Source: Asterionella formosa (Eukaryota). Taken from it: a stretch of 64,000 nt of DNA. The notes beneath the pieces were generated by a model. The model made no database searches, was not told the DNA's origin, and was given only the letters and a program-made list of their open reading frames with translations. Numbering within the stretch: the first letter of the stretch is position 1; each line of letters opens with the position of its first letter. Below are positions 1 through 51,159 of this stretch, in pieces. A program made the position numbers and the translations under genes. The DNA lies in contig NKIB01013073.1 of the NCBI GenBank assembly GCA_002256025.1, forward strand, positions 1 through 64,000, given 5' to 3'.

Positions 1-258
1 TTGCTTGCTTACTACTCCAACTAAGCTCTTTCAATTTTACGATCATATGATCCTGAAACTATTTTTTATTTACTGTCCTGCTGCAGTATCAACAGTCATG
101 AACATGTGGTGTTCTGTGGCTCGCTTACTACTCCGACTATCCTTTTTCAATTTTATGATCATGCGATCCTGAAACTATGATGCTTTGCTGTCCTGCTGCA
201 GTAGCAACAGTCCTGAACATATGGTGTGGTTCTGTTGCTCGCTTACTACTCCGACTAC
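1..258 (-). repeat. Degenerate tandem repeat, unit ~116-118 bp, at least 2.2 copies (runs off the window start); possibly a decayed WD40-repeat coding array
   Basis: GCTTACTACTCC(A/G)ACT recurs at 7, 123 and 241 with similar intervening sequence. Minus strand reads IVSGSHDHKI and IVSGSYDRKI once per unit, with in-frame stops. Confidence 0.75.
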
Positions 259-3200
259 CCCAGTATATCATTTCCTACCTGCTACTGGTACTCTGTATAT
301 ATATATGATAAAATGTAAAATGTTATTGTCATATGATGTACCTGTACACATGAAGAACTCCCGCCCAAAAAAGGGGCTTTAATAACTTGCTACCAAAATC
401 CTTGCGTATAAATAATACAAATGGGTTATGACTTACACCAATTGAATGGCCTAAAAAATAAGTTCCAACGGACATAGAAAATATTGATGCAAACAAATTT
501 CATAAAAAGTACCAGTACAAGATGTCGTGGAAAACAATGGACATATCGTGAATTGAATATTTTCGAATTATCTATATGCGAATATGATCATCTCAACAAT
601 ACCAGATGTGCCATATTGAGATTGCCTTTGATTTTTATAAATGTACAACACTTGATATATTTATATATTTACAAATTTTATAACTATATACATGGCAAAT
701 ATATTTGAAATCATTCTGTAATGTTAACAAACCATGCCTGCTTCATGCAAAGAAATATGCATAGTAGTAAAGCATATGACAAGAAAGGAAAGTTTACGCA
801 ATAACGAAAAATATTGTGGCTTTGACACATTGCGCCTTCGAAGGATGGAGTATGTTTAAGGTAATGAAGACATCAATGTGGTACTTGGATGACAATCGTT
901 GGGAGGCAGGACAACAACAAATTGTAAACTAAACTCACATTTCCTTTTTCTTAGTTGATTCAATAGCTCGTTTCGCTTGTTGGGGAGCACCAATGTAAAA
1001 CAAAACAAAATTGGTAAGTGCTCTTGTCATTGGACCTATTCACTTCTGCTGGAACATAACTGACGGACACGCCACTTTACCTTCTCTCAAAGTAAAGCAA
1101 ACGAAAATGAATCGGTAAGTTTTAGTCGACAACATTGAAAACCTGAAACTTACTTTTTTAAGAATTTAATGACAATTTACTATTACAGACTTATGTATCA
1201 CTTGCTTTGATTTGGATGTGGTAAGTGAAGCAAGCAAGAGGATAAGATGGAATGGCGTGATGTTGTGTCAGTGTCAAATCATGTCTAGCTAACAATTCAT
1301 TCCTTCTCATTGTTACTGTAACTGCATAGGACAAGAATAAAACCGATCAAACAATGGAATAGCCGGCTAGTTCAGAATGACACTAGCAGCAGGGAAAGAG
1401 ACACAACATTAGTAAGGCACTGCTTGGCACAAGATTCAGAATAGATGAAGAAAAGGGCGAGACAGGAACAATATACATTGAGACAATTGGAGAGGAGGAG
1501 AGAAACATTCCTCAGGTAGCTGTCGAAACAGAAATATCATTGTTAAATTTGATAGTTAAATTACGATCCATTCCAATCCTTTTTGAACAATGCTTGTGAT
1601 TAGAATCATGATCATATTTAAGATAGATTTACAATGAAACAATTCACATGATAGCATAGAGTTGAGCTGATTTTAGGATGCGATGTAGTAATAATTTTCA
1701 TCAGGCAATCACGAGAATTGAAAATAATATGAGAAGGTTTATGATTTTAATGAGAAATGTTGTTGATCAGTTGATATACATTGTGTGATGATAATGTTCT
1801 TATTATCATTATACTTCAAGGTCGGTAAAATATTAATAAATCATCATAGTTATAGGATACCTTGATCATAGTTTTGATCCAAAAATTATCATATATACGA
1901 AAATCCTGTGCCACTTAGCGCACGATACCTTTGATCCTATATGCATGATACTTTTTATTTGCAGACTCACGATTTCAAATGGAATAGCCATGTATGCATT
2001 TTTTTAATTTGTAATATGTGAAGATATGTATAGTTGAACACTTTCATAGTTCAAAGACACACTTTAAATTGCACATCATATGTATACTATCATCATTTAA
2101 TCTTATAAATAATTCAGATATATACAATCCATGAGGATATCATTGTTTTCCATGACCTGATGTACTGTTTTTGAATATTTTCCACATCAACAATTCTTGT
2201 ACCTACAAGTCACTGATTTAATTAAGCCCCTCAATTACCGGGAGTCTAACTACAACATTTTTCATATGGTACAAATCATGTAATAATTAGATGGTTCATT
2301 TTCTCATATCATTGACATCAGTTATCATGTGATAAATATGCTTTTATCAAACGTGTAGGATATGTAAATCAAATGTTATGAATAACAGATCATACTTTCT
2401 GTTAAGAAATGATTGCCAATAAAATTAGATCATAGATAAAAATATTTAGCTCTTTTGATCTTACTTTAAGCATCAATATATCCTAATACTTACACATAAT
2501 TTTGATCATTTATTTTCTCATAGCAATGACATTATTTATCATATGATTAATATGCATCTATCGAATGATTATTTGTAAAAACATATGTCTTTACAAATAA
2601 TACTTTCTAGTCCTCTTAAATGATTCATGATTGCCAGTAAATTTAGGTACAAATGGTGGGCTGTTTCTACGACAGTATTATTGTGTACCCTCCATCACCT
2701 AGTAGAAGGTCCTGTAGTGCACATTTTATGTGCACCTTTTCAGTTTCGACCCACTCCCAATGATTTGTCTCATGACTGCCAGACGAGATAGGCCAGCTTT
2801 CGATTGAAATAATAATCCTTGAGTAATTTAGGAAAACGTTACTCTTATTGACTGATGACGATTTGCAGAATCAGTCTCTGAACATGACTCGGATTTGCTG
2901 ACTGATAAACCTGTTCAGCAAACTGTCTTCTAGCTTCGTCGTACAAATAGGAATCATATTTTTCTACGTTTAGAACTTTCTGACAATGACTAGAATTTGC
3001 TGACAACGACAAGAACTTGTGGATACAAATAGATTTTCTGAATGACCCGTATGGCTATGAAGTATGGATATGATGAATAGACACAGCCAACTAAAACCCC
3101 TGACAGCCTTGCCAATACTAGGAACATTCATAACATCATATCTATATACAAGGTCACAGTCACTATCACGCCTGATGCAGCAGCCTCTCGGGGTAACAGG

Positions 3201-5409
3201 CACCCTGGGGATAAAGACTATTTCCATCGCAACGGCGACACTCATCAGTTTTCCTCAACATATACTTCTATTACATTAGAAAATGAGATCTTCCGTTATC
3301 GCAATTGCCTCTTGTATTTTGGCTGGTGTTGACGAATGCTTTTGTTCAATCCATTTGTCTGACAACGGCTTACACTGATCAGTGTATGGTAACGTAAACA
3401 CTTGTACAAGAAAAATTCATAATGAGTTTTGTGTATCAGTTTTGCTTCAATTTTTCTTCATCCATCAACTTACATCCAGCATGGCAATGGTAATAAGCCA
3501 ATCATTTCTGAATCATAGTTTGATATCGAAGACTCAGCCTGTTAAAATGAAATATAGTAATATCACCACGAGAGGTGTATATTGATTTGGAGAATAATTG
3601 ATAAAAAATAAAAGGAATTTGAATGAACTTCATTCTAACATAGTGATAAATATAACAATCAACAAAACAGGTACGGAATGAATCATTTCATTCAAGATTG
3701 GAAGTTTTGTTCAAACTGTCTATTCGTGTTCATGTATTTTTTTGACTGCAAATTGTTTGAGTGGAATTGGGCAACAATTGATGGTATAAAATCGACGCAA
3801 TGTGCGTGGTTCTCATTTAGCACGCGCTGCATGGCTGATGCATATCAACAATCATCCTTACCATGGACTTTTCCGTACTACTTCCTAAATTCCATTCCAA
3901 TTTTGAAAACTTAAACTAATAGTATTCTTTGAACAAAAATTTTAGCTTTGAATTGGGAATGAATTGATGGAGACAACGAAACAATTCGATGAAAGCAACA
4001 ATCATCCATGCAGAACAAATAAGTCATATTGCTCAATCATTTTCATCCAAATTCTACAAAACGACCACTATTTCCTATGATCGTCAATGTAAATTATAGA
4101 TTAAAAATTATTTTAGTTTTATCAGGGAGTGAATTGATGGAGAACTGAAGAACAGTAAACAGTGAAACATAATGGGGCAAATCATCACCTCATACCTACC
4201 GGCAGTAAACCAATACATACATTGTGCACTGTTTTTGCATATGAGTAGTTTATACAAAAATATTGAATAACATATACTTTGATGCATTATTGATGTGCTA
4301 TGCTTGGTTAGTAAGGCGTGATGTGAATAAATAATAAAAGGATTAGTAGATACAGCTAATCCATTTTTCATTGGATCAAAACTTTTCTTAATATGTATAG
4401 CTTATCATATTTTTAGGGTGTGCTCGGAGATATTTTACGATTGACCGGTTAAAGTGTTCATATTTGATAAGATAATGATTAAGCTCAGTTTGGAGCTCAT
4501 TTTCCCTCTGATCTAATGTATAACTCAATGGTTCGAGCAAAATGTCGAGCTCAACATAAAAAAAAGGGTCATCACTTATAACGCGCTTTCTAAGACCTTG
4601 TGGTTCCACATGCATGGTTTTTCCATAGCACTGCCTGCCAACAAGACCTGTGCTTCCCTAGTTTTAATAGCATAGGTGAGTCCCTAATCATCTTTCGTGA
4701 AAGGTGATTGACATCCATGCAATCGTCATCATTGATCACAGCTCCTAGCTGCATTAAGTTTTGTCTGCTTTTCCATCTCCTCCTCATCTTTCTGCATTCT
4801 CTTTCTATGGGGTTTCATTGCTATCTTATGGATCTGCACCACATGAATGATTTGTTCTTTTTCTGTTTCGTTGGCCTCATGGATAGCACCTTTCCTCATG
4901 GTGACACGGTCGTTTTTAGGAATTATTAAGTGTCAGGACCGAAGGGCCCTGTACCTTGAATACCACTAAATTCTGTGATCAGAGCCTTTGTGCTGTATTA
5001 GTCTTTTGTATAATCGCCTTTATACCACTTGGCAAAAAAGTTTTGAGTGATCAATATATATTATATTGTATAACAAATATTTATCATTTTTATAGCGCAT
5101 TCCCACTAGTCTATTTTTTCTAGTTTACTGTGCGTTGTTGTGCTCCATTGCCCATTTTAGGTGGGGTGGTGGAAATTTGGATGGGTAGTCACTTGTTCAT
5201 GCAGAAGTAGGTTTTAAAAAATGTGGTAGCATTGATCTTGAAGCGATTCTCTATAACTGCACTGTTCAGGTCAGGGGGAGAATTAGATTTTGAGTGTTGA
5301 TTGGGTGAACGATTTCCGCCCTTTTTGGCCCTGCTCTGGTTGTGGTTTCTGGATTGGGTTGTTTCTGCTGAATCCTTAGATTCTGTTTTGTCACTGATGT
5401 CACTGTGTA

Positions 5410-12309: not shown

Positions 12310-13253
12310 TCCTGAAAATCTTCCGCGTTCAAGCAGGTGGTCTTTATTCGTTGCAAGAATGCTTGCTATTTATAGGCTTGCGTAATATCTGAAGCAACTT
12401 GCCTTTGTAACTTGTGTCGTTCCTGGGAGAATGCTTCCCAAAGTTTCTCAACAGTTGGCAGGAATACAATGCCCTCGGTTTGCTTCTCCTGGAGTTTTTA
12501 TATTGCCCACCGGTGGTTATTTGTTTGGTTTTTGTGGTCATTCATTCTCGTTCGTCATAGATAATCTGGTTCTATGATAGTACCTACCGGTAGTCTATAT
12601 CTATGTATAACAAAAAATCATCAACCTATGTATTTATTAGCGCCATCATACATATGGACAAAATCAGAAACGAGTGAGGCAAAAAAGAAATTAAATGTAT
12701 GGTACAATTTACGTTTGAAAGACGTACAGGGTACTATACTACTATTTGTTATTGGACAACTGGTTTACTTTTTATGTATCTGTGTGAACTTAACATACAT
12801 ATGACAAATATGTTTTCTACTCCTCGGGGTCCAAAATGTACTCGGTACCGTGTACCTGGTAGTAGACGAGAAGAGTTTGTTCTGTTTTGCTTAGCAAGAA
12901 TGATATTACCATTATGTATATACTGTTCACGGTTCATACTTTCACACCGCTACTGCTGTGTACCAGCAAGTTGCGGTCATTTTGCGGAATTATCGTATAT
13001 CACTTGAGGCAGGATACCGGTAGGCCCTTCCATGAGGTTGCGGCCCCGGCTACCGGTAAACATACGACAAATATTTCTGGGTCCAAATGTTTATCGGTAC
13101 CGGGGTACCGGTACCGATAAAGGGAAGGTGCCGGAAACTCCGAAGTACGGAAAGACACAAACATCAATTGTGTTTTATCTATATCGGTAGTCGACCTCTC
13201 ATGACATTTTCCAAAAGCAAGAATGCAGAAGAACGCGAATTTTGCAAAAGGCG

Positions 13254-13412
13254 GTACGCAAAGACCCCAAAAGACCGTAAAGACCGGGAGATGAGCGCAA
13301 AAGACCGCGAAAACCAAGGGACGAAGAATGCGGAAAAACGTTTTCACGTTCTTTTGCGGTTTTTTCGCGTTCGTCTCCGGGTTTATGCGGTCTTTTAAGG
13401 TCTTTTGCGTAC
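13254..13412. mobile_element. Foldback/MITE-like imperfect palindrome with internal AAAAGACC subrepeats, flanked by TA
   Basis: Left arm GTACGCAAAGACCCCAAAAGACCGTAAAGACCGGGAGATGAGCGCAAAAGACCGC matches the reverse complement of the right arm, GTACGCAAAAGACCTTAAAAGACCGCATAAACCCGGAGACGAACGCGAAAAAACCGC. TA at 13255-56 and 13410-11. Confidence 0.65.
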
Positions 13413-14306
13413 TTTCAGGGTCTTTTAAGGTCTTTTCGTTTGGTCTCTCTCCATGTGCTACACATTTGCGATTATTTACTGGTCAGCCAAATGGTCATAA
13501 TGGTTGTTCATGAGTATACCGGTATGTAGGAAGCTTGGGAACCGCTGATACCCTCTTTCCTGTAATGTAAATCAATTTGGCCTAATTTGGCCCTTTGTTT
13601 GATACTCATGTCGAAATACCATAACCTTCTTGCATGCAGAAATTGTGACCTTGTTTGGCTTCAAAGATTGATTTGGAAATGCCTTATTGAGATACCTTTT
13701 CAATCTATTTGAATTAAAATTGTAGCTATGATATCGCCAAAAGAGTACTTTTCATGAAGATATTCCCTGAATTGATTGACTGGCAACCAAACACCATGAA
13801 TGGCAGGGTCGCTGATGGTGGCCATAACGGATATTGCTATAACGTTTTGAATATCATGTGAAAAGTGGCTGATTCCCCAAAAGCATTTCACTCATGACTA
13901 TATGAATGTATCTAAAAGCCTTTGGGGAATCACTTTTGCACAGGAAACGGTGGTGATATAGAGCAACATGGTAGCCGATCAAGCAAACAAATTGGCGCGA
14001 TATTCCTTCCTATGCTACGTATGCATCAGCATGCTCCTTGGCTGAACATGATAAAAAGCAAATATTTCTTATGACGTCGTTCTGCCGATTTCGACATCAA
14101 GTTTGGCATACGACCGGATTCTGGATTCTGTCCTGTGGTACTGCCGTGTGTAAAATCTTTTGTATGTAGCCTGCTCATATCTGACCTACGTAGATCATGT
14201 CCAAGTGTCGCTCCGGTAAAACTGAAATGCAACTCATCATCAAATCGTATACCGGTATCCTCATGTGAATCATATACGGGCATTTGAGGATCAATCAAAG
14301 CCATCA

Positions 14307-19261: not shown

Positions 19262-19849
19262 CCAGAGCTTAGCTGCCAATGTAAAGGGAAAGCGCTGGTT
19301 CTTGCTTGTCTAATTTTCTTTCAAGAATTTGCAACAATCGTCAATGCATCCAATCATGTGGAACTGGAAGGTGCATAGAGCAGGCATTTGAAATCATTGT
19401 AGAATGTCAGGGCATTTTCGTAATAAATTAAATGTCGAAGCAAACTCTTCTGCCTCTAGTGGTTGCACTGCTGATGTTGCCTTTCCTTGTTTTCGAACTT
19501 CCTTTTTCTTGACTGCTTTGATCAGGTCTATGATGGGTTGCCAGATTTTGTCATGGGATTCCAGAAGGCAAGTCTGTAAGGAATTAAATATGACAAGGCC
19601 TTCTTGTAATATTCCTTGGAACTCGAACGTCCAAGTGTTGGATTATCATCATGTCCAGGGTCAGGACAGCCATACACCTTGTTTGCCATCCATTTGTATG
19701 CATCCTTGGGCATAATCTCACCTAGTTGCTCATCACTAAACTCATAGCCATTGTCATGCATATGTTGTGCCATCTTTGTACTAGGACATCATAGATGATA
19801 GGATACTCCTGTAGGCACTAACTTGCTGTGGCTCATTGACTCTTTTCAT
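19262..19849 (-). mobile_element. Decayed, 3'-truncated tyrosine-recombinase ORF of the stramenopile Crypton-like type
   Basis: Across frameshifts and stops: AYRSILSSMMS*YKDG / EFSDEQLGEIMPKDAYKWMANKVYGCPDPGHDDNPTLGRSSSKEYYKKALSY...WNPMTKSGNP / DLIKAVKKKEVRKQGKA...PLEAEEF / ALCTFQFHMIGCIDD / FPFTLAAKLW. This resembles a family I recall from oomycetes and diatoms (GNPTRS, KKKEVRKQG, IGRIDD, WSKN). Confidence 0.7.
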
Positions 19850-22800
19850 TGTGGTGTTCATCCTAATCTCGTTATTTTAGTATTCACTCCCACCATCAAT
19901 CATCATGGTGATGGGTTTAATTTTTAGCAGCGTAGAAGTACTGGAGTAGTATTAGCTAGTACTACATGTAGTACATTCCTACAAGGTTTAATTAAACCAA
20001 AAAATTAAACCCCCAGTTAAACCGGGTTAATTTTTTCTACTGGCAAATACTGTTGTAACACGGTGCTTCCACTAGTATTTTCAGATCAATACCGTGCCGG
20101 TTTTAAAATGACCCAGTAGACACATAGTAGAGGCCTACAGGAAAATACAACTTGGGTTTAATTTTACCAATTACGGTATTGTATTGAGAGGTTCTACTGT
20201 ATTCCCTAATTAAAAAAGAAGTTATTTTACAGGTGTTATAGATGATACCAGCAGAGTAAGGTAAACTCTTCACAACAAGACATGCAGCTCATTGATGTGC
20301 CCCCCGCCCCATTCAAATTTTGACTCAATATATTACAGAAAACCCGATATTTGGCATGCCTTTTCCAATAGTAGTTTGGTAACGAAGCTAGAAATGATCA
20401 TATTTGTTGAGTTGATATCATTAGTCAAAAGAAAGGCTTTGCCCAGCAGCCATCCCTGCAGGGGGGAGGGAAGGGGATTATAGCCAGCATGGCATTGCTG
20501 AAGGCAATACACACCCGAGGTGGGGGTCTCATGCCTGCAAGTATACATGTGTTTGAGGCTGGGTGGTGCGAGTAGGTTGACTGTGAAAGTGATGCCCCCG
20601 GCATTGCGAGAAGGTCACCCTACGAATGCCATCCCAGCCGAGTACACATGTGTATGAGAAGGCCCTGTAGCCACTGAGAATGGTATTGCTGAGGCAATTC
20701 ACAAACTAGCTATTGTTACACCATTCGCTTACCAACTGCCCACTCATCGAGTTACTCATTAAGTGGAAATGTCAATTTTAGTTCGCTATAGCCCATCATA
20801 TAAAATATATATTTCATATCTTTCCTATCTTCACATCGAAATTTGCAATGGGTCCGATATTGCCCATCATTAAAATAAATTTTGGATATTTCCTACTTTC
20901 GCTCACATTTTGGCATTGCCCCTCGGTTTTCCAGCCCTGGGAATGCCGAAATTGGCAAGAGGTCCACTTAAGGAAACCATTTTATAAACTCTACAGACTT
21001 TAATAATTTACATTTAGTAATCACCTCGTTTTTGTTCTTCTCCTGAAAAGTGGACTCCGGCAATCCACCTTTCACCATGCCAATTGTCATCCATCATGAC
21101 CGGTTTGAAGCGAAATCAGTTCAGCCATGTCGCCAGTAGCGATTCGTTGTCTAACGGATGCGGTTGGTTGTTGGATTGCTTGTCTTCTTGAGGGACTCAT
21201 GAAGTCACTTCGTCCATATTTCGTCGGACGAACAATGATATCGATGTATCTGATGTTGGCAGCAAGTTCTTGCTTCGGTCATGCATGTGATGATACTTAA
21301 CGGATATTCTACCAGTACCAGGTAGTCATCTAGTCTACATATGTACGAGGTTCTAAAAACAACCATGCATGCTGGTTTAAGCTAAACTTTAACGCTTACT
21401 TTGAGCACGTTATAATAATATCTCTGTAGACTTGGTATTATCTTTACGAGACCAGAATGTTAAATTGTATCGTTCACATATTGATTGATTTTATGTACTA
21501 CCGTATGCCCGATTTCGTCCTCACAATTATAATTCTCACTCTATCCTGCCTGCCATTGCTCAATTCGGGCTTGCAACAGGAATCGACTTTCTTATGAGCC
21601 CATCGTCTGCTGCATGTTACGCTTGTTCGAGCGGATCAGTGAGTACAACAGTGAAACACTGAATGTGATTGTAGATCGTATTTATCGACTTTCCGATTTG
21701 ATTGCTTCCACGGTCTGTTTTGATCGCTTCTACTATCATTCTTTGTCGTTCTGTGCTGTCGGTTTGTTTCGATTGTATCTATCTACATAAGAACAAATGT
21801 ATTTATCGATGACTACCACTCTTTGACGACGTATTGTTGTTATCGTATTTGTTGATTTGTATACCGGTAGTCGTTTACCATGATGTCAATATTGCCGCCA
21901 AGCAATGATTTTCTTGTACTAACGCGCTTTGCTACATTTATACTACGAGTTTGTATCACAAGCTGCATCAATACTCAGCTAGAGAGATTCAATTGTGCTG
22001 GAGCAGCGTGGCGATCACGCTTCTTGCTCATAATGGAATGATCAGGGTTGCTTGTTGCTTTCGTGGGCGGAGGAATGACTGTGGCGAAAATACTGCTACT
22101 GGTGTCAGGCTAATACCGTGATGCGCATGGCTGCAGCAACAGACCGTTTACGCTACATAACAATGCAGATCGAAATTGGGTTCAACTTTTTTCTTCTTCT
22201 TTGGGTCGTCGATTGTGTGGTGATGGAAAGTCAATGTTGCCTGTGTAAGTACTACCATGATTCACAATGCATACATCTCCATTGAAACTAGTACTATTTT
22301 TACTTCATTTCTAACCCAAAACAATTTTTTCTATTTCTTATTGTTTGATGCAACTTATTACATTGCATTTCATACTTTGGTTGCTCCAAACATCATATTC
22401 AATTTTCATTGATGTTGCATGTTTCTACAATCATTCTCGTGTGTTTTGCGCTTGTTGTACCATCTCCATGCATATTACCATTACTCTGTCTGTCATGCTG
22501 AAAATCGGCAATTTTAATGCCAAAAAATTTGATGTGCCCCATATTGCCCCTAAAAAAAACTTAAGAAATTACTTAGAGCCTAAAAATTACTTAGAAGTAC
22601 CCGAATGTCAAGACGATAGCTGGAGCGGGAATTGCCTTCAGTGACTGGCAGGAGAAATCCAAATAATCTATTAAGTCACCATGATTGTCACCATTTTTTT
22701 GACTAGTAGACCAGCTCCAAACTAAATATGTATTGCCTGAAATTATCCAGCTTTCGAAATTGAGGTGATTGTGAATGATCTCTGTATAAGTAATTTATGT

Positions 22801-36350: not shown

Positions 36351-36443
36351 TGCAAGTTGCGGTCATTTTGCTTAAATAATCAATTTAATATGGGATAAAA
36401 ATAAGCTATATATTTAGTTTCAGCACATTTACCGCAGCTTGCA
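36351..36443. mobile_element. Small MITE-like element (93 bp) with 21-bp imperfect TIRs
   Basis: TGCAAGTTGCGGTCATTTTGC (36351) versus the reverse complement of 36423-36443, TGCAAGCTGCGGTAAATGTGC (17/21), around an AT-rich core. The 20-mer GCAAGTTGCGGTCATTTTGC also occurs at 12966. Confidence 0.6.
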
Positions 36444-37104
36444 GGATTACATGGTAATCAGGTATCTGGACCTGGTACTGGTACCTGGTACCAGCAAGTG
36501 CGTGGCGGCAATTTTGTTTCTTCGTGTACCGGTACAACGTAGGTAGGTACCTGGTACTCACTCCCAAAACAACCGACAAACATTTCCGGACTCGGCAGCC
36601 GTTACGGAATCAATGTATGAAACTTCTAACGGCTCGCGCCCGCAGGCCGTATAATGACGACTGGACAAAATTTGATAAATTCAGATAATCATAAATGGAC
36701 AAAACAGGTTCTGACGAATTGTAATTTTGGGTTAAAGTTTTTGGGGATTATACCGGTAGTTTAAGCAAATGGACCACTTTCAGCAAATCTACTTGAACCA
36801 AAACCACTTCAAGCAAAACGAACAACAACGGGTACCGGTACCTGGTAGTCCAGAATCCTGATGATCGGTCGTACCGACAGTAATTTTCAAACCAAATCCC
36901 AACGACTGCCAAGAATGCATCAGGGACCACAATGCCCGTATCTACCCTACCTGTACCTGGTACCATGTACCAGGTACCGTAGTCTACCACGCATACCGGT
37001 ACCTGACATGCCTGTTCCTGCGAACGAGAATTGAAAGCAGACGAGACGAACCTGATAACAGAACAGAAGAACAAAGAAACATACAACAACAGCCGACGAC
37101 CATC

Positions 37105-43002: not shown

Positions 43003-43715
43003 GTTAATATCTATGCTACTGAGCTGAGGGTGCTATACGTCTAAGTCTACGGAATGGAATTCAATGAGTGTCGGCAAATGAAACTAAGTGAATTGGAGGT
43101 TATGTGACAAGCTATTTTTGTCAATGTATATCCTGCTTTTGCACCTCCAAACCCACATTGCTTTTTGGTGCTGTTCGAAAGTACATCACCCCCATGTATG
43201 CCGTACGCAACATTACATCAAAAAATAATAGCCTAGCAAGCGAACGCACAGGCACGGAAATCATTTGTAACCATATACTGCACCATGTTCCAGGTATCCG
43301 GCATGTTATATGATTACGAGGAGTAGGCAACACAACCAGGTACCAGTACCACCAGCATCGTCTATACCAGGTACCAGGTGCATGTAATTCCGTGTAGAAA
43401 CGTGATGACCGATAAAAAATAGTCAAGGAGTTGATAGCTAGGTAGTCTGGTATATAACGTATAAGATGGGCCTAAATGTATGGCCACTTGGAACTGGAAG
43501 GAGTACCGGAAGTACCCCAGACACTTCACCAAGGGCAGGTACCCTGGTACCAGGTACCAGGTACGCACCAATGGAACAGTCAACGTCAATGGGCCGAGGT
43601 CGAAAAGAGAGCAGGAGCTTCCTCAAGTCCTGTTTCATTTTCACTTAAAAAAATACAGAATAAAGATGCTGTCTTGCTCCTAAGCACTATGAGGAATATG
43701 TCATTGGAAGATTTT

Positions 43716-44004
43716 TGTTGGAGAAATATTTTAGGAAAGAAAATCCCGGTATAAATTACCTACTACATATTGAGGAATCGAATGAATCAAAAAGAATACC
43801 GGTATGGTACCAGAGAAAACTCAGAATTCGAAAACAATCTAGCTACATCAACAGTAGTAAAACCCATAATTCTACTAAAACTTTTAGGAACGATTACAAT
43901 CGATTACTGCAACATCGTTGTTCATATCTTCAGCCTATTTGGTCCCTGACGTGTCCTTACAGGATACAAGAAAGCATAGAGTGCTTCGGGACACAATTTC
44001 AACA
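43716..44004 (+). repeat. 5' LTR (289 bp)
   Basis: TGTTGGAGAAAT...AATTTCAACA. Differs from the 3' LTR by 7 substitutions and 4 short indels (manual alignment). Confidence 0.96.
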
Positions 44005-44019
44005 GTTTTAGTAGAATTA
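44004..44019 (+). other. Primer-binding-site position, complementary to the element's own LTR
   Basis: AGTTTTAGTAGAATTA is the exact reverse complement of TAATTCTACTAAAACT (43867-43882 and 48198-48213). No TGG start as expected for a tRNA 3'-CCA primer. Confidence 0.75.
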
Positions 44020-47000
44020 GCCGGCCAGAGAGCAGAGCCGTGCATCACAATCAACAACAGGTGGACCGTTGAGAGTCCGGAGACAAGATCTGAGGGTACC
44101 AGACCGTCCAGGGTCTGAAGAAGTCACACAAGGCGCATCATGAGTGGCAAAGGAAAGTTCACCAAGAAGGCTCAGACCAAGGGCAAGTTTCAAGCCAAGG
44201 GAGGGAGCATTGCTTCTCACACAATCAAGAAGTCAGTCAATAACTACAACTACTACCTCGGGTCAGCAAAGCAGGCATCTGATTATGAGACTACTACTGA
44301 GTACCTCATCAATCACATCAAGAAAGTGTTCGACTATGGCAGCGACATAGGAACTGCGCTCAAGTTGTTAGAACCAATCAACACATCCGCATGGAAGCCA
44401 AGAATGCAAGTGAGCATTGCAACAACAACAAGATCGCGCTGCAGAGAATCGACAATATGAGATTGAGTTCAAGGCTGACTATGACATCTACAGTAAAAGG
44501 GTACGCACAGGCCTACGAAAATAATAATTCCAAGGCATATGCGTTGCTCTGGGAAAGATGCAACAAAGCCATGAAGAACAAGATCGAAGCGAGATCCAAT
44601 TACAATAGGATCGAAAATAATCCAATAACATTGCTTATGGCAATTAAAGAACACGCATTAAATTTTCAAGAAAATCGATATTCAATGTCGATTATTTTAG
44701 ATGCGATGAGAACTTTTTTGCTTACAAAGCAAAAGGAAGGAGAAAGTCTACAAGACTACACCAAGAGATTTCGTGTGGCATGAGATGTGCTCAAGTCACA
44801 CATGGGAGGACCAATTATCCTCACCAAGTTTGTTGAAGCCATGGACAAATACAACGAGACTGACATCAAGCAAGCTACGAGATAAATTTCGCAAACAAGC
44901 TTTCAGTCAATTTATGGCCTATTTATATCTCGATAATGCCGATAAACCAAATACGGATCAATTATGACCGGGCTGAACACTCAACAATCACTCGGCAACT
45001 ATCAATACCCAAAGAGCATCATCGAGTCGAATAATGTTCTCAGCAAGAACCATCGGTTTGACGTAACAAGAAATAAATCCAAAAGTCACAAGAAACCAGG
45101 AGATCATAATGAAGAGAGAGAACAAAAGGATGCAGGGAAGGAAGACGAAGATGTGAACTTGTCGTTTGCACAGTTAGAAGGAAAATGTTACTGCTGCGGA
45201 AAAGCAGGTCAAAAATCTCCTTCGTGCAGAGACAAGAATAAACCCGAAGATGAATGGGCTATAAACAGGGCCCAAAGCCATGCACAGGCACAGGCTAAGA
45301 ATACATCGGACACAAGTACAGTTACCTCTGTTAATTCCAACAACCCGCCGTCATCACAAGCTTCACAACAAGCAAATGTTAATCAATTTGGATGGGCGGG
45401 AGCTCATATGAAACTTCAATTATACCAAGCATCTGAGATGCATGACTGGATACTATTGGATAATCAATCAAGTGTCACAGTCTTTTGCAATCCAAAAATG
45501 GTTGATAACATTCGAATGTCAACCAATGGAAGCATGCACCTGGCCACAAATGGTGAATCCATGGTCGTCACTAAGATTATGAAGGCTGATCTTCCACAAT
45601 GGGGAAAAGAATGGTTTAATGAGAAGGCAATCACAAACATCTTCAGTTATGCCGAAATGGCAGATAGTACTAGGTACAGAATTACCTACAACTCTGAAAA
45701 AGAAGATGCATTTATTGTTCATTTGCCTGACAAGCCAGTTCGATTCAAAAGAATTGGGATGAACTTAACTTTTTTCAAGCCTCCTACAGCAATTAAAGTG
45801 GAGAATGCTCAAATCTTTAATTCAGTTGAAGAAAGCAAAACATTTTACACTGAGCGTCAATTTAAAAAAGCGAAGTGAGCTCGTGATCTATTTCATGCCT
45901 TGGGTACACCATCAATTAATGATTTCAAGGCAATAATTCGTATGAATACGATCAACAATAATCCAGTTGTGACCACAGATGATATCAAAATTGCAGAGAA
46001 AACTTTTGGACCTGACATCGGAACACTAAAAGGCAAGACAACTCGTCTCAAGCCGCTGCCAGTCGTGAACGACTACATCGAGATTCCTAAGGAGCTTATC
46101 AGAGCTCAACGCAAAGTGACTCTTTGCATGCTGGATGGAATGAAAGTGAATGGACAATCATTTATCACAACAATTTCTCGAAACATTATGTATAGGACAG
46201 CGCAATGGGTCAAGAATCAGACAGCTGAAGTCTATCGAGATGCTTTGACTCAGGTAGCTATTCCGTGTTTATAATACCGGAGGATTTAAAATTTCAGCAA
46301 TTCACTGTGACAACGAGTTTCGATCTTTGATGGAACAAATTTCCAATGAATTTCAAGTCACTATGAACTAAGCAAACCCACAAGAATGTGTTCCTGAAGC
46401 GGAGCGAAATAATCAAGTGATTAAAGAACGCGTGCGCGAAGCTTATCATCGATTACCTTTCAAACATTTGCCACGACTGATGATTAAGATTCTAGTGACA
46501 GAATCTGCAAAGAAACTGAATTTCTTTCCGGAAAAGAACGGGATATCCCCGTATTACAGTCCTCGTATGATTTTACATCAACGAAACCTGGACTATGCTC
46601 GACATTGCCAGTATACATTTGGCACTTATGTCCAAGCACATGAAGAACCTGTGTTTTCAAGCACTAATGCACCACGCAGCCTAGATTGCATTCATCTACG
46701 CTACAATGACAACGTGCAAGGAGGTCATGAGCGAATTATTAAACCTACCTACAAATTCATTGATCACTAGACAAACAGTTACTCCTCTACCACTTACCCC
46801 TGCAATCATGAATCAAGTACATGCCCTTGCTGTGCAGGAAAATATGCCAGATGGTCTCAAGATATCAAATCTAACGGGACAACTTTTTCATGATAGTGCT
46901 TGGATTGCAGGAGTGGATTATGATAATGAAGCATTTGAAGATGCACAAGATGAAGATTATGAAGATCAACAAGTTAGTGAGGACTATGAAAGCAATGATG

Positions 47001-48053
47001 AAATTCTCGGAGAAGATTATGATGAAATGACTCCGGATGAAATATATGAAGCAGAACAGCTCGAATTAAACAACAATATCCAAGAGGATGACCCTGAACC
47101 TGAGGGCAACAATGAAAATAATGTTGAAACGAATGCAGCAGATGAAATCCAAGATGAGGATGAAGAACCAGTAAATAAAAATGAAAATGAAGAGGCAATG
47201 TTAAAAGTCAATCAAAGCACTGAGGATGACACAGACCCAAATGTTAGAACTACAAGGTCTGGAAGAGCCTCAAGACCACCATCAAAACTAACTATGATCC
47301 AACATCATTTGCATACCCAAGCACACTGTCAAGAAGAATACACGACTGATAATGCGAAAGTGATCGCAAAGACAATGTTTTAAATGAATGAGATGTGTAT
47401 CGATAAAGAAGCATTTCACTTTGTTCAGTCATACAGCTTAAGGAAAGTCCAAAGGAAATTTGGCCAGAAAGGAAGAGACGCAAAATTAGTCAAGATCATG
47501 AATTTCTTGAAAGCAGCTCAGAATGAGGTTGCATCTATGAGTGCTGATGACACTCAGAGCATTAAATGGTACGTTGATGTGGCGTTTGCAGTACACAAAG
47601 TTTTTAAAAGTCACACTGGACCTACATTGTCACTTGGAAACGGAACTATTTGTTCTATGTCTACGAAACAGAAAGTGAACACTAGAAGTTCGACTGAAGC
47701 AGAATTGGTTCGTGTCGATGACATTATATCAAAGGTGTTATGGACGAAATAATTTATTGAAGCACAAGCAAGGACATAAGGTGACTACTAGTAATGTCAT
47801 TTACCGTTACAACACTAGCGCAATGAAGCTAGAAGCAAATGGAAAAGCAAGTTCAGGAAAACGCACGCGACATTTCAACATCAAATATTTTTACATTATT
47901 GTTCTTATTGAAAGAAAGGAAGTACAAATTAAGTACTGTTCAACGGATGCCATGCTAGCAGACTACATGACAAATCACTGGTTGGAACGAAATTTATTCA
48001 TTTTCGTCAGCAAATTATGAATTGAAAGTAGCCATCCGTGTCCAGCAGGAGTG

Positions 48054-48335
48054 TGTTGGAGAAATTATTTTAGGAAAGAAAATCCGGTATCAATTACCTA
48101 CTACATATTGAGGAATCGAATGAATCAAAAAGAATACCGGTATGGTACCAGAGAAAACTCAGAATTCGAAAACAATCTACATCAACAGTAAAACCCATAA
48201 TTCTACTAAAACTCTTAGGAACGATTACAATCGATTACTTCAACATCGTTGTTCATATCTACAGCCTATTTGGTCCTTAACGTGTCCTTACAGGATACAA
48301 GAAAGCATAGAGTGCTTCGGGACGCAATTTCAACA
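48054..48335 (+). repeat. 3' LTR (282 bp)
   Basis: TGTTGGAGAAAT...AATTTCAACA; direct repeat of 43716-44004. Confidence 0.96.
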
Positions 48336-51159
48336 ATTTGTTATGCTTCTTGATGCCACTACACCCTTTGCTTTGCAATATGTCTAAGCAGAAACCTATT
48401 CCCAAGATTCCTTAATGACTCAAGAACTTTGGCAAACGGAGTTCCCCAATGAGTCATTCTTTGCTGAAAATGGTGAGGTTGGAGAAATTCCTGATCCTAG
48501 ATGTGAGCGATCAGTTTCTCTAATGGCAGGTTTTGATTTGTCAGGATCCTCCAAGCGCCAAGCAGGCTTTCTTTGGCAATTCTCGACATCTTCATTCGAA
48601 GATATTGAGTTTTTGGAGCAGGGAGTCATAAACTACTGGAAATTTCTCCTCTTGAAGCCAAGAGCATAGAAACAGGGGAAAGTTTAGTACCAACATACTA
48701 GTACATTACTTGATGGAAACAGCATTCCATTTTTCTGTCTTGCCTTTGTCACTCTTCATCCTCACCCATTCCATTCTTACTTTCCTCTTTGCTTATTGTA
48801 GTCAAATCGATACGATGTTGCACACACACATGCTCTCGTCAATTGCTGGCTACGACTCCGACTGCAAGACCATCATGGGTTCAACATTGCACCACATCGA
48901 TTTCTTGGTTGACCGCACCAAAGGTAGCATTTTGGATCTCTAGTATCAATCAACCAAGCAAATGTGGCTTGATGAGTTTGGTTCTGAGTATGTGGTGGAC
49001 GGTGGCATGTATCGAGGCGAACCTCCATCCTCCTATTACAGTGCAGAGTGGCAGCCTACAGGAGCTCCTACAATGGTTGTGGCCAGTGAAATGGGAGCTT
49101 CCTCAACATCATCAAACAGAATTTTGCTACCTTTCAAATGGGCAACTATCTCTGATAATACCTCAGATGGATCTCCTGCCTTCATTGCTCCAACTGACAA
49201 ATCAGAACGCCGTGAAAATCTATGAGGTGAACAATACCGTGAGTATTATGTCCTTGGCAACAAGGTTAACAACATAGTTGGCTAGCTACTATTAGCTACC
49301 TTGAGACGAACGAAGCCCATCAGATAATTTTTTCAAGACTTCTGTTCAGGATCCAATATTAGTTGCATTGATTCCCTGTTACCACTAGTGTCTTAACTGC
49401 TGTTCGCATATGAAGGATTACGTAACAAATAAACCATCTGTCTACAAGCAGATCGGCGTTCTCGAAAAAATGCGTTTTAATGAGTTAAATAGAGATGCAC
49501 AATTGCTCTGTTTTTGTATTTAAATCTAAATTAATTAATTAAAACCAGTTTAACATTAGTTTATTATATTCCATACATGTACATATCGCCAAATGTTGTT
49601 ATACATTGGCCAGCCACTCAACTATTTGTGGGAAACCAATAAAAAGAGTATTTTTCATTTGGTAAACTTTCTACGACGGTTGTTGCACCTAGCTAAATGG
49701 ACCATACTGCCAGATATTTAACAGTTACAATCCTCAAAACGAGCATACCATTGTTTTCTTCCTTCCCATCATTGCCACTTTTGGGGTTGCGCATTCCATA
49801 ATTGAATGCAAGTTGCCGTTGTTCTACTTTTATATCGTACTTTGTACGTATGTTGAGAATAGATGCATCGAAGAAAAATGGGTCCTCAGCATGCATCTGC
49901 ATTTTGCTTGAGATAGTTGTAGCCATGAGTGAAAAACGAAAAAGTCGAAAAACATTTTTTCAAATGTAGTTGCCAAGTCTTTCTATATATATTATATACA
50001 TGGATCCGTAGCTTAGAGCTATTCGCACAATAGGGCAATTGAGCTGGAGAAAATCGTAGGAGTCAAAATGGCCCCAGATAAATTTGAAAAATCGATGCAA
50101 GTAATATTGGACAGAGGGAGTACAGTTTTTACCCAGAACCCTAGCAGTAGTCTACCCATATACTGCGTGCACTCTGATAAGAAAAAATATTACATTATGT
50201 GTATTACAACACAATCATTGTACCCATAAACCAAAAATTTGTGCTCACATGCAACCTTTTTTGTGAATCAAATGTTTGAAGAAAAGAATCCTAATAATTC
50301 TTGTGTTTTTTAGCTAAGTACATATCATTTCATCCTGCCAAAATGAGGGGTCCATTGCTGTCATTTTGATTTTCAACTTCTTTGTCTCTCAGATAATAGC
50401 TGATGTTTGGAATGCTGCCAAGATTTACTGGGAGATGAAAATGTTGAACAATTGCAGCAATTTTATAATTTCAGAGATTCATCACTCATATGTCTGTGTG
50501 TAGAAAACCTTCATAGACTTTGCCTGTGGTGGTTGTGGTAGTGGTTGTGGATTTGGATTTGGATGTGGTGTGACCAATGGTGCTGACTGATCATATCTTG
50601 CCATGCATTTCACTTTACTGTCAGCACCATAAATGTGAGTTGTTTCATTTTTTTATTAGGACAGGCTGCATGGGTTGCTTAATTCATTTGATCGGTTTTT
50701 CAAACATACTGGTTTATCAATTTTTTTACATAAAATAAATCTAGATTGCGCCTTCCAAAATGCCACAAGATGCACTTGATCGTGACTTTTTATGAAGCAG
50801 CAAGGTACACTCTATGTTACAAAAATGAATTTGTATGATGAATAGAAGTACTGGTAGAATTTTTCACGGACGGCGCATGACCTTTTTTCATAGTATTGCC
50901 CCGGCCACCCAATTTCGCGAAAATGTGCCTACTATGTATGAAAATTACCGTAGTTATTCCGAGTACCTGGTGCCGGTACTATAATGCAACAAACATTATA
51001 CCGGTATATAGACTAAACTAGAGTCTTTGGTCCCAGCATGCTTCTTGCAAGTGCACTTCACTCCCCGCTCCATTGACCACCACCAAACGGCAAGAACATT
51101 TTCATTCCTAGCCTATAGTAACGTCTGAACATATCGACATTACCCTATCCAAAGCAACC

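What the first reader, a model, noticed from the sequence alone, without database searches (positions are those of the whole stretch)
43840..48700. Dead elements are broken by a stereotyped micro-insertion: dinucleotide duplication around 1-2 G/C bases (TA to TA-GC-TA, TA-G-TA, TA-C-TA)
Seen: the two multi-base LTR indels are TAgcTA (43840-45) and TAgTA (43855-59) against plain TA in the 3' LTR. The integrase frameshift at 46255-60 is TAgcTA, and removing GCTA restores QVFRVYNTGGFKISAIHCDNEF. TAgTAcTA at 45665-72, TAcTA at 47786-90, TAcTA at 48696-48700 (GRDP) and TAcTA at 19779-83 (the stop in the Crypton relic) fit the same rule. Non-TA versions also appear (GAgcGA ~46729, ATgcAT ~19757). 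Known: Tc1/mariner-type excision leaves the duplicated TA separated by a few terminal bases. Inference: a very active cut-and-paste element with 2-bp TSD and C...G ends, or an unusual break-repair pathway, is a dominant mutational process here.
Basis: partly seen in the sequence, partly recalled or inferred. Interest (0 to 1): 0.75.

Follow-up and report, generated by a model that had tools for sequence, protein, structure and literature searches.

The report
Plavaka transposon excision scars in alga
Most small insertions sampled in this freshwater alga's repeated DNA are one kind of 3-4 base scar (two bases repeated around G, C or GC), and their positions match the landing preference of an abundant, little-studied jumping gene, so they probably mark places it jumped out of.

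Summary
The micro-insertions are real, but they are not a TA or Tc1/mariner phenomenon. Of 258 insertions polarised across 871 kb of repeat copies, 153 read XY-(G|C)-XY (115 of 124 three-base) or XY-GC-XY (38 of 46 four-base). Of 137 unambiguous sites, 103 are not TA. Slippage and flank-only hairpin bases fail. XY-GC-XY is the top filler in non-coding DNA and is not enriched in ORFs.

The scan found the XY-GC-XY scar before on other DNA of this genome, without a source. I propose one: Plavaka (EnSpm/RAG-related) transposons. They have 139-211 exact copies per terminus, C...G ends and one 2-bp duplication shown against empty sites. Their flanking dinucleotides (249 termini) rank like the scars (Spearman 0.90), and the -1 base is nearly identical (C 37% vs 36%).

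The filler is the complement of the element's end base. That implies an unshown step: a flank hairpin that captures the terminal C. No filled-then-scarred site was seen, and the spectrum fit is imperfect (p 0.04). Plavaka as source about 0.72; new variant of a known kind.

The parts
43716..48335 (+). Decayed Ty1/copia-type LTR retrotransposon copy that records the scars (LTRs 43716-44004 and 48054-48335)
   Evidence: family label recalled from gag/integrase/RT-like frames, Pfam gave no hit on the one frame scanned
43840..43845 (.). scar TA-GC-TA in 5' LTR
43855..43859 (.). scar TA-G-TA in 5' LTR (also a tandem triplet)
43772..43776 (.). scar GA-G-GA shared by both LTRs (second copy 48110-48114), so older than this insertion
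   Evidence: 2 of 2 other LTRs lack it
44503..44508 (.). scar AC-GC-AC
   Evidence: 6 of 6 lack it
45045..45049 (.). scar AA-G-AA
   Evidence: 12 of 12
45068..45072 (.). scar AA-G-AA
   Evidence: 12 of 12
45297..45301 (.). scar AA-G-AA (site variable among copies)
   Evidence: 9 of 15
45565..45569 (.). scar TC-G-TC (also a tandem triplet)
   Evidence: 17 of 17
45665..45672 (.). TA-GTAC-TA: two successive scars, or one with longer fillers
   Evidence: 20 of 20
45966..45970 (.). GT-T-GT, exception to the G/C rule; possibly a deaminated GT-C-GT (inference)
   Evidence: 29 of 29
46129..46133 (.). scar TG-C-TG
   Evidence: 29 of 29
46255..46260 (.). scar TA-GC-TA in the integrase region
   Evidence: 29 of 29
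46729..46734 (.). scar GA-GC-GA
   Evidence: 29 of 29
46979..46983 (.). scar GA-G-GA
   Evidence: 25 of 29 at this placement, 28 of 29 with nearby placements
47136..47140 (.). scar CA-G-CA (also a tandem triplet)
   Evidence: 28 of 28
47766..47771 (.). scar AA-GC-AA (also a tandem tetramer)
   Evidence: 7 of 7
19299..19303 (.). scar TT-C-TT in the 19263-20185 repeat relic
   Evidence: 11 of 11
19756..19761 (.). scar AT-GC-AT
   Evidence: 11 of 11
19779..19783 (.). scar TA-C-TA
   Evidence: 10 of 11
1..1967 (.). Terminal 2 kb of a decayed Plavaka element, the proposed scar-maker family; terminus at 1967
   Evidence: 88% to G000:C12935:13867-15825

Best explanation
The XY-G-XY, XY-C-XY and XY-GC-XY insertions are excision footprints of Plavaka-type cut-and-paste transposons. 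Shown: Plavaka is abundant and young here, has C...G ends, made a 2-bp target duplication in the one copy checked, and prefers the same dinucleotides and the same neighbouring base as the scars. Inferred step 1: the element lands at XY, giving XY-element-XY. Inferred step 2: on excision the first nick falls one base inside the element, so its terminal C is sealed into a hairpin on each flank, as in flank-hairpin transposases (hAT, Transib, RAG, Muta1). Inferred step 3: the host opens the hairpin 5' of that C and fills in, which puts G on the left flank and C on the right. Inferred step 4: end joining keeps both (GC) or one (G or C). Selection removes the four-base form from genes. Source about 0.72; the hairpin geometry about 0.6 given the source.
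For: Fixed filler independent of flank: 60 of 62 and 18 of 22; with A/T-only XY the filler is still G/C in 30 of 30. PF18759 gives 43 matches, open frames up to 839 aa; Pfam confirms 3 of 4 frames scanned. Termini: 139, 211 and 149 exact copies, reversed-pattern controls 0, many at contig ends. L327 links the CGTCTGCAA terminus to a Plavaka frame; the other two termini lie upstream of Plavaka frames. A 9,816-bp copy at G000:C12935:13866-23681 is flanked by AT on both sides, and 4 of 5 homologous Harbinger copies examined show the empty site with one AT. Target match: XY enrichment of 249 termini vs 137 scars Spearman 0.90; -1 base A/C/G/T 22/37/21/19% vs 23/36/23/19% (p 0.97 for a difference), while scars differ from background at p 4e-11. 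PlavakaB makes 2-3 bp TSDs with CATCA..TGATG ends and belongs with EnSpm/Transib/RAG (PMC12730594, passages and section 16); flank hairpins in hAT, Transib, RAG, Muta1 (PMC5499845, passages). The other resident families checked have other TSDs: Harbinger 3 bp, pogo TA only, a MULE-like MITE about 10 bp (81).
Against: No site was seen in all three states (empty, filled, scarred). The filler is the complement of the end base, so the simple overhang model predicts CG; the extra chemistry is not shown for Plavaka, and RAG and Hermes nick at or outside the border (recalled). A word-count test for longer hairpin-type fillers gave no general support: O/E 1.01-1.08 vs 1.11-1.17 for controls, only TAGACTA/TAGTCTA stood out, 45 vs 19. 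The best mixture of subfamily spectra still misfits (p 0.04; AA/TT 38 seen vs 25 expected), and the oldest subfamily alone fits less well (Spearman 0.65; AC/GT 9 of 49 vs 5 of 137). The 2-bp TSD rests on one element. The 200 P1/P2 rows are the first 100 listed of 172 and of 119, with T at -1 excluded, hand-tallied and not de-duplicated. Scars outnumber termini by roughly 100 to 1 (rough). Several superfamilies (hAT, Sola, Academ, Zisupton, ESTA, Lanisha) were not searched.
Confidence: 0.72

Rival explanations
1. An unidentified element with G...C ends and a relaxed 2-bp target leaves a one-base 3' overhang (G) on each flank, Tc1-style; G:G mismatch joining gives G or C, end-to-end joining gives GC.
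For: Needs no new chemistry for the G-then-C order. Two five-base events read XY-GGC-XY, as GG...CC ends would give. Only 150 of 423 PF13359 candidates were scored.
Against: The PIF/Harbinger families whose ends I could read have 3-bp targets; one family's ends stayed unread. PF13613 and PF13358 gave 0, PF01609 6 weak matches, mostly places already in the Harbinger list. Described ISL2EU uses AT and Pangu ANT (PMC4482050, passages). The Plavaka spectrum match would be coincidence.
Confidence: 0.12
2. A host enzyme that cuts with a 2-nt stagger (Spo11 / topoisomerase VI type) followed by fill-in and untemplated addition of one G per end during end joining.
For: SPO11 leaves 2-nt 5' overhangs that can be filled and joined after TDP2 (PMC12918824, passages). 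It explains G-then-C order and the genome-wide spread.
Against: Plain two-base duplications should then be common, but two-base insertions are 18 of 258 and many are runs or microsatellites. Untemplated addition is normally variable in length and base (recalled), while fillers here are almost only G, C, GC. It does not predict the match to Plavaka targets.
Confidence: 0.08
3. Ordinary replication slippage, with later substitutions hiding the tandem repeat.
For: 55 of 124 three-base insertions are perfect tandem triplets; the AA/TT excess over the Plavaka mixture may be slippage.
Against: 62 are not tandem and 60 of those have G/C. 0 of 55 tandem triplets are pure A/T against a background of 0.20. 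The tandem share (47%) is what chance flanking gives under the scar model (36-51%). Three- and four-base lengths make 170 of 258 insertions but 16 of 77 deletions.
Confidence: 0.02
4. Footprints of the resident TA-targeting pogo/Tc1-mariner elements.
For: TA is the most enriched target, 34 vs 8.8 expected; pogo-type transposases are present, 93 matches.
Against: 103 of 137 sites are non-TA; pogo ends are CCG or CAG, always at TA in the copies read, which fits TA-CCGG-TA, not G/C/GC.
Confidence: 0.03

Closest known systems
PlavakaB DNA transposons of the CMCT clade (EnSpm/CACTA, Mirage, Chapaev, Transib, Plavaka, ESTA, Lanisha; PMC12730594, passages, section 16, one supplement row)
   Same: PF18759 transposase, CATC-type termini, 2-bp target duplication
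   Different: Termini here read CATCT or CGTCT rather than CATCA. No excision footprints or cleavage chemistry in the passages read or in searches.
Flank-hairpin excision of hAT, Transib, RAG and Muta1 (PMC5499845, passages)
   Same: A hairpin on the flank opened by the host and joined by end joining gives complemented bases at the junction
   Different: There the extra bases complement the flank. Here they do not (10 of 62; 0 of 22); they are fixed G/C, the complement of the element's own end base.
Tc1/mariner and pogo footprints (TA + end bases + TA; Tc1 and Sleeping Beauty patterns recalled)
   Same: Both target copies kept around a fixed filler; one-base-overlap and end-to-end forms coexist
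   Different: Target is not only TA; filler is one base per end and is G...C while the candidate's ends are C...G.
Plant CACTA footprints (Tgm9 4- and 0-bp, PMC4015899 passages; Tdv1, PMC3193017 passages and section 18)
   Same: Same clade; a 4-bp footprint equals a 3-bp TSD plus one base
   Different: The footprint letters are in figures or a paper I could not see, so whether the extra base is G/C is unchecked.

Membership tests
Plavaka (candidate source element) | PF18759 transposase | tested here: met
   43 matches; 3 of 4 candidate frames over cut-off
Plavaka (candidate source element) | PlavakaB termini CATCA..TGATG (clade rule CA..TG) | tested here: inconclusive
   Two subfamilies start CATCT; the third mostly CGTCT, some CATCT: first four bases fit, fifth differs
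Plavaka (candidate source element) | 2- or 3-bp target site duplication | tested here: met
   AT/AT around a 9,816-bp copy, empty site in 4 of 5 homologues examined; one element only
Plavaka (candidate source element) | C(2)C and H(3-4)H motifs between second D and E | tested here: inconclusive
   Both spacings are visible in the L223 translations; catalytic residues were not aligned
Transposon excision footprint | Target duplication retained around a fixed filler | tested here: met
   153 of 258 insertions
Transposon excision footprint | Scar sites follow the element's target preference | tested here: met
   Spearman 0.90, -1 base p 0.97; residual misfit p 0.04
Transposon excision footprint | Same site seen empty, filled and scarred | tested here: inconclusive
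   8 filled sites had homologous empty sites, none printed showed a scar; no allele data
Transposon excision footprint | Scar produced on induced excision | not testable with these tools
   needs an assay
Tc1/mariner footprint | Target is TA | tested here: not met
   34 of 137
Tc1/mariner footprint | Filler equals the element's end bases in place | tested here: not met
   Resident ends CCG, CAG, C(A/G)T; filler G, C, GC; CG 2 of 46
hAT/Transib/RAG P-nucleotide footprint | Extra bases complement the flank | tested here: not met
   10 of 62 and 0 of 22
Replication slippage | Insert is a tandem copy without base bias | tested here: not met
   62 non-tandem triplets; 0 of 55 tandem triplets pure A/T
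Spo11/topoisomerase VI break repair | Sites follow the enzyme's cut map | not testable with these tools
   no break map for this organism

The most novel reading that the evidence does not exclude
Plavaka transposases nick one base inside their own end and seal that C into the flank hairpin, a cleavage geometry I did not find described for RAG-related transposases. Its repair has written on the order of 100,000 G/C/GC scars, making one transposon lineage the main source of small insertions in this genome and giving a sequence-only assay for past CMCT-clade activity in any genome.
Probability: 0.42. Interest if true: 0.82.

Novelty: new variant of a known kind. Interest (0 to 1): 0.68.

Why it matters
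It ties a genome-wide mutational signature to a named transposon lineage whose chemistry is unstudied. The link makes a sharp biochemical prediction (first nick one base inside the end, terminal C in the flank hairpin) for a relative of RAG and CACTA. It also means small insertions in this genome are mostly not slippage: about one scar per 11-12 substitutions in the window's retrotransposon (14-16 scars, 171 private substitutions). That affects how repeats are dated, how dead genes are read and how non-coding word biases are interpreted.

Tried and rejected
1) PIF/Harbinger families (at least 150 PF13359 matches) as source: ends GG...CC but 3-bp TNA/TWA or ANT targets.
2) CACTA PF02992: 0 matches, and the control rang nowhere, so uninformative. 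PF13613 0 (39); PF13358 0 (48).
3) Pogo families: TA only.
4) A motif I first took for a Plavaka end (177 matches) lies inside a MULE-like MITE with G...C ends and a TSD of about 10 bp; dropped.
5) An apparent two-ended copy with TG duplication in L097 was a chance match to internal sequence; not used.
6) De novo TIR scans were noisy and showed no 2-bp-TSD element.
7) Longer hairpin-type fillers: no general support.
8) In-frame scars in a live gene: the one window-only insertion (2 residues) in a WD40 gene against 9 homologues shows no clear scar.
9) Other organisms: 7 usable metagenome loci of 0.5-5 kb non-coding DNA rank GC filler 2-16 of 16, against rank 1 in the window and in 4 of 6 own-genome stretches (ranks 3 and 14 in the others); too small to conclude.
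10) Laid contigs listed only 12 of 78 indel rows, nearly all in repeats, so no allele spectrum for unique DNA. A first metagenome scan found nothing.
11) Twenty further decayed Harbinger copies were not obtained, so the catalogue stops at 258 insertions.

Full report
Setting. The window is G000:C13073 of a 68-Mb eukaryote assembly whose DNA occurs in freshwater metagenomes. 'Diatom' comes from earlier scan notes and my recall of diatom copia elements; I did not test it. 43716-48335 is a decayed LTR retrotransposon with at least 39 related places.

Observation. Against 29 other copies the window copy carries private 3-, 4- and 6-base insertions; 19263-20185 behaves the same against up to 14 copies. 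Most scars in the element are not at TA.

Spectrum. All-against-all comparison of 194 sequences (871 kb; 7 duplicate loci dropped) gave 258 insertions and 77 deletions. Each had clean flanks, support from at least 2 copies and 60% of covering copies, and was de-duplicated by context. Three- and four-base events are 170 of 258 insertions but 16 of 77 deletions. 115 of 124 three-base insertions fit XY-(G|C)-XY; 38 of 46 four-base insertions fit XY-GC-XY and 2 fit XY-CG-XY. Among events that cannot be tandem copies the filler is G/C in 60 of 62 and GC in 18 of 22. None of 55 tandem triplets is pure A/T (background 0.20). The pattern holds in every group of loci, for example 55 of 90 in pogo loci and 46 of 85 in Harbinger loci. 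XY is TA in 34 of 137 unambiguous sites (8.8 expected), AA/TT 38, CA/TG 27, GA/TC 12; the base outside XY is C in 98 of 274 sides.

Reach. XY-GC-XY is the most over-represented of 16 fillers in repeats (O/E 1.60) and in non-repeat non-coding DNA (1.73), not in long ORFs (1.01). It is also first in gene-proximal non-coding DNA (1.58) and in 208 kb of unique non-coding DNA (1.67, others 1.13-1.31). Some of that 'unique' DNA may be repeats seen once in my sample. A rough reading is 1.5 four-base and about three times as many three-base scars per kb of non-coding DNA, so around 10^5 in the genome (inference). The window's retrotransposon has 14-16 scars against 171 private substitutions at 3,687 positions.

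Search for the maker. Harbinger families have 3-bp targets. Pogo families sit at TA with CCG or CAG ends. PF02992, PF13613 and PF13358 gave nothing (the first had no positive control). Earlier scan notes pointed to abundant Plavaka elements. PF18759 gave 43 matches. After one false lead I found three termini starting CATCT or CGTCT, with 139, 211 and 149 exact copies. L327 runs from one terminus into a Plavaka frame. One 9,816-bp copy is flanked by AT on both sides where 4 of 5 homologous host copies examined show a single AT; 2 kb of its interior was not held. The window's first 1,967 bases are such an end.

Target match. Flanks: 49 termini of the oldest subfamily and the first 100 listed of 172 and of 119 rows for the two young ones (T at -1 excluded, hand-tallied, not de-duplicated). 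The young families use TA 40%, CA/TG 28%, AA/TT 17%. Pooled enrichment ranks like the scars (Spearman 0.90); single families give 0.65-0.83. The -1 base of the young families is 22/37/21/19% (A/C/G/T) against 23/36/23/19% in scars. The best mixture still misfits at p 0.04, mainly an AA/TT excess in scars.

Mechanism. A Tc1-type overhang from C...G ends would give CG. The observed G-then-C is the complement of the end bases. Flank-derived hairpin bases do not explain it (10 of 62, 0 of 22). Plavaka groups with EnSpm, Transib and RAG (PMC12730594, passages and section 16), and hAT, Transib, RAG and Muta1 form hairpins on the flank (PMC5499845, passages). I infer a first nick one base inside the end, the terminal C at the hairpin tip, opening 5' of it, fill-in and joining. 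These steps are not shown. A test for longer fillers of that kind was negative apart from one TA word pair. Three of five non-tandem five-base events fit it, which is weak.

Literature. Searches listed no paper on Plavaka footprints or on this signature in diatoms; the library lacks most subscription papers. Read as passages: PMC4482050, PMC12730594 (also section 16 and one supplement row), bioRxiv 10.1101/2025.02.11.637652 (one passage), PMC12918824, PMC5499845, PMC4015899, PMC3193017 (also section 18; footprint letters are in a figure). PMC2815930 was not held. Two earlier scan notes saw XY-GC-XY in this genome without a source; none seen joined Plavaka to scars. New here: the three-base sister class, the non-repeat reach, and the Plavaka target match.

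Verdict. Real and strong signature; source probably Plavaka (0.72); hairpin capture of the terminal C plausible but unshown (0.42 overall); new variant of a known kind; interest 0.68.

Noticed in passing
window 43714-48342: Contigs joining across the whole retrotransposon (empty site) occur in all 4 runs laid, at about single-copy depth, so this old, scarred insertion may be polymorphic or hemizygous.
   Followed up: no
window 47481/47482: The window copy lacks about 1,030 bases that other copies hold here.
   Followed up: no
L154-L163, L170-L176, L185-L198; window 21852 region and other repeats: Second scar class TA-CCGG-TA and variants; resident pogo-type elements end TA|CCGT, others TA|CAGT.
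   Followed up: partly
L081, L090-L095: Very young two-gene Harbinger family with dozens of near-identical copies that break contigs; TNA target.
   Followed up: partly
L102, L103, L105-L107, L109: PHIS family with ANT target duplication, the Pangu pattern of PMC4482050.
   Followed up: partly
L110:1137-2137, L224-L283: 1-kb MULE-like MITE with G...C ends, unlike first 9 bases at the two ends, TSD about 10 bp, 177 motif matches.
   Followed up: partly
window 20494-22636: Decayed copy of an abundant repeat with ATTGC-type ends and no obvious target duplication.
   Followed up: no
window 36352-36446: 95-bp palindromic repeat, 11 further matches in held loci, no consistent target duplication.
   Followed up: partly
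window 13123-13495: Relic of a repeat family with internal inverted sub-repeats; about 50 weak matches in the genome.
   Followed up: no
L110:4867-4880 and L139:4407-4414: Scars inside Plavaka's own termini (AA-G-AA, TA-C-TA), which may have immobilised those copies.
   Followed up: no
unique non-coding DNA of held loci: XYZ-GG-XYZ / XYZ-CC-XYZ words are over-represented 1.8-1.9 fold, perhaps from the GGTACC tracts.
   Followed up: no
L096-L115: Harbinger copies carry many internal deletions of 100-900 bases.
   Followed up: no
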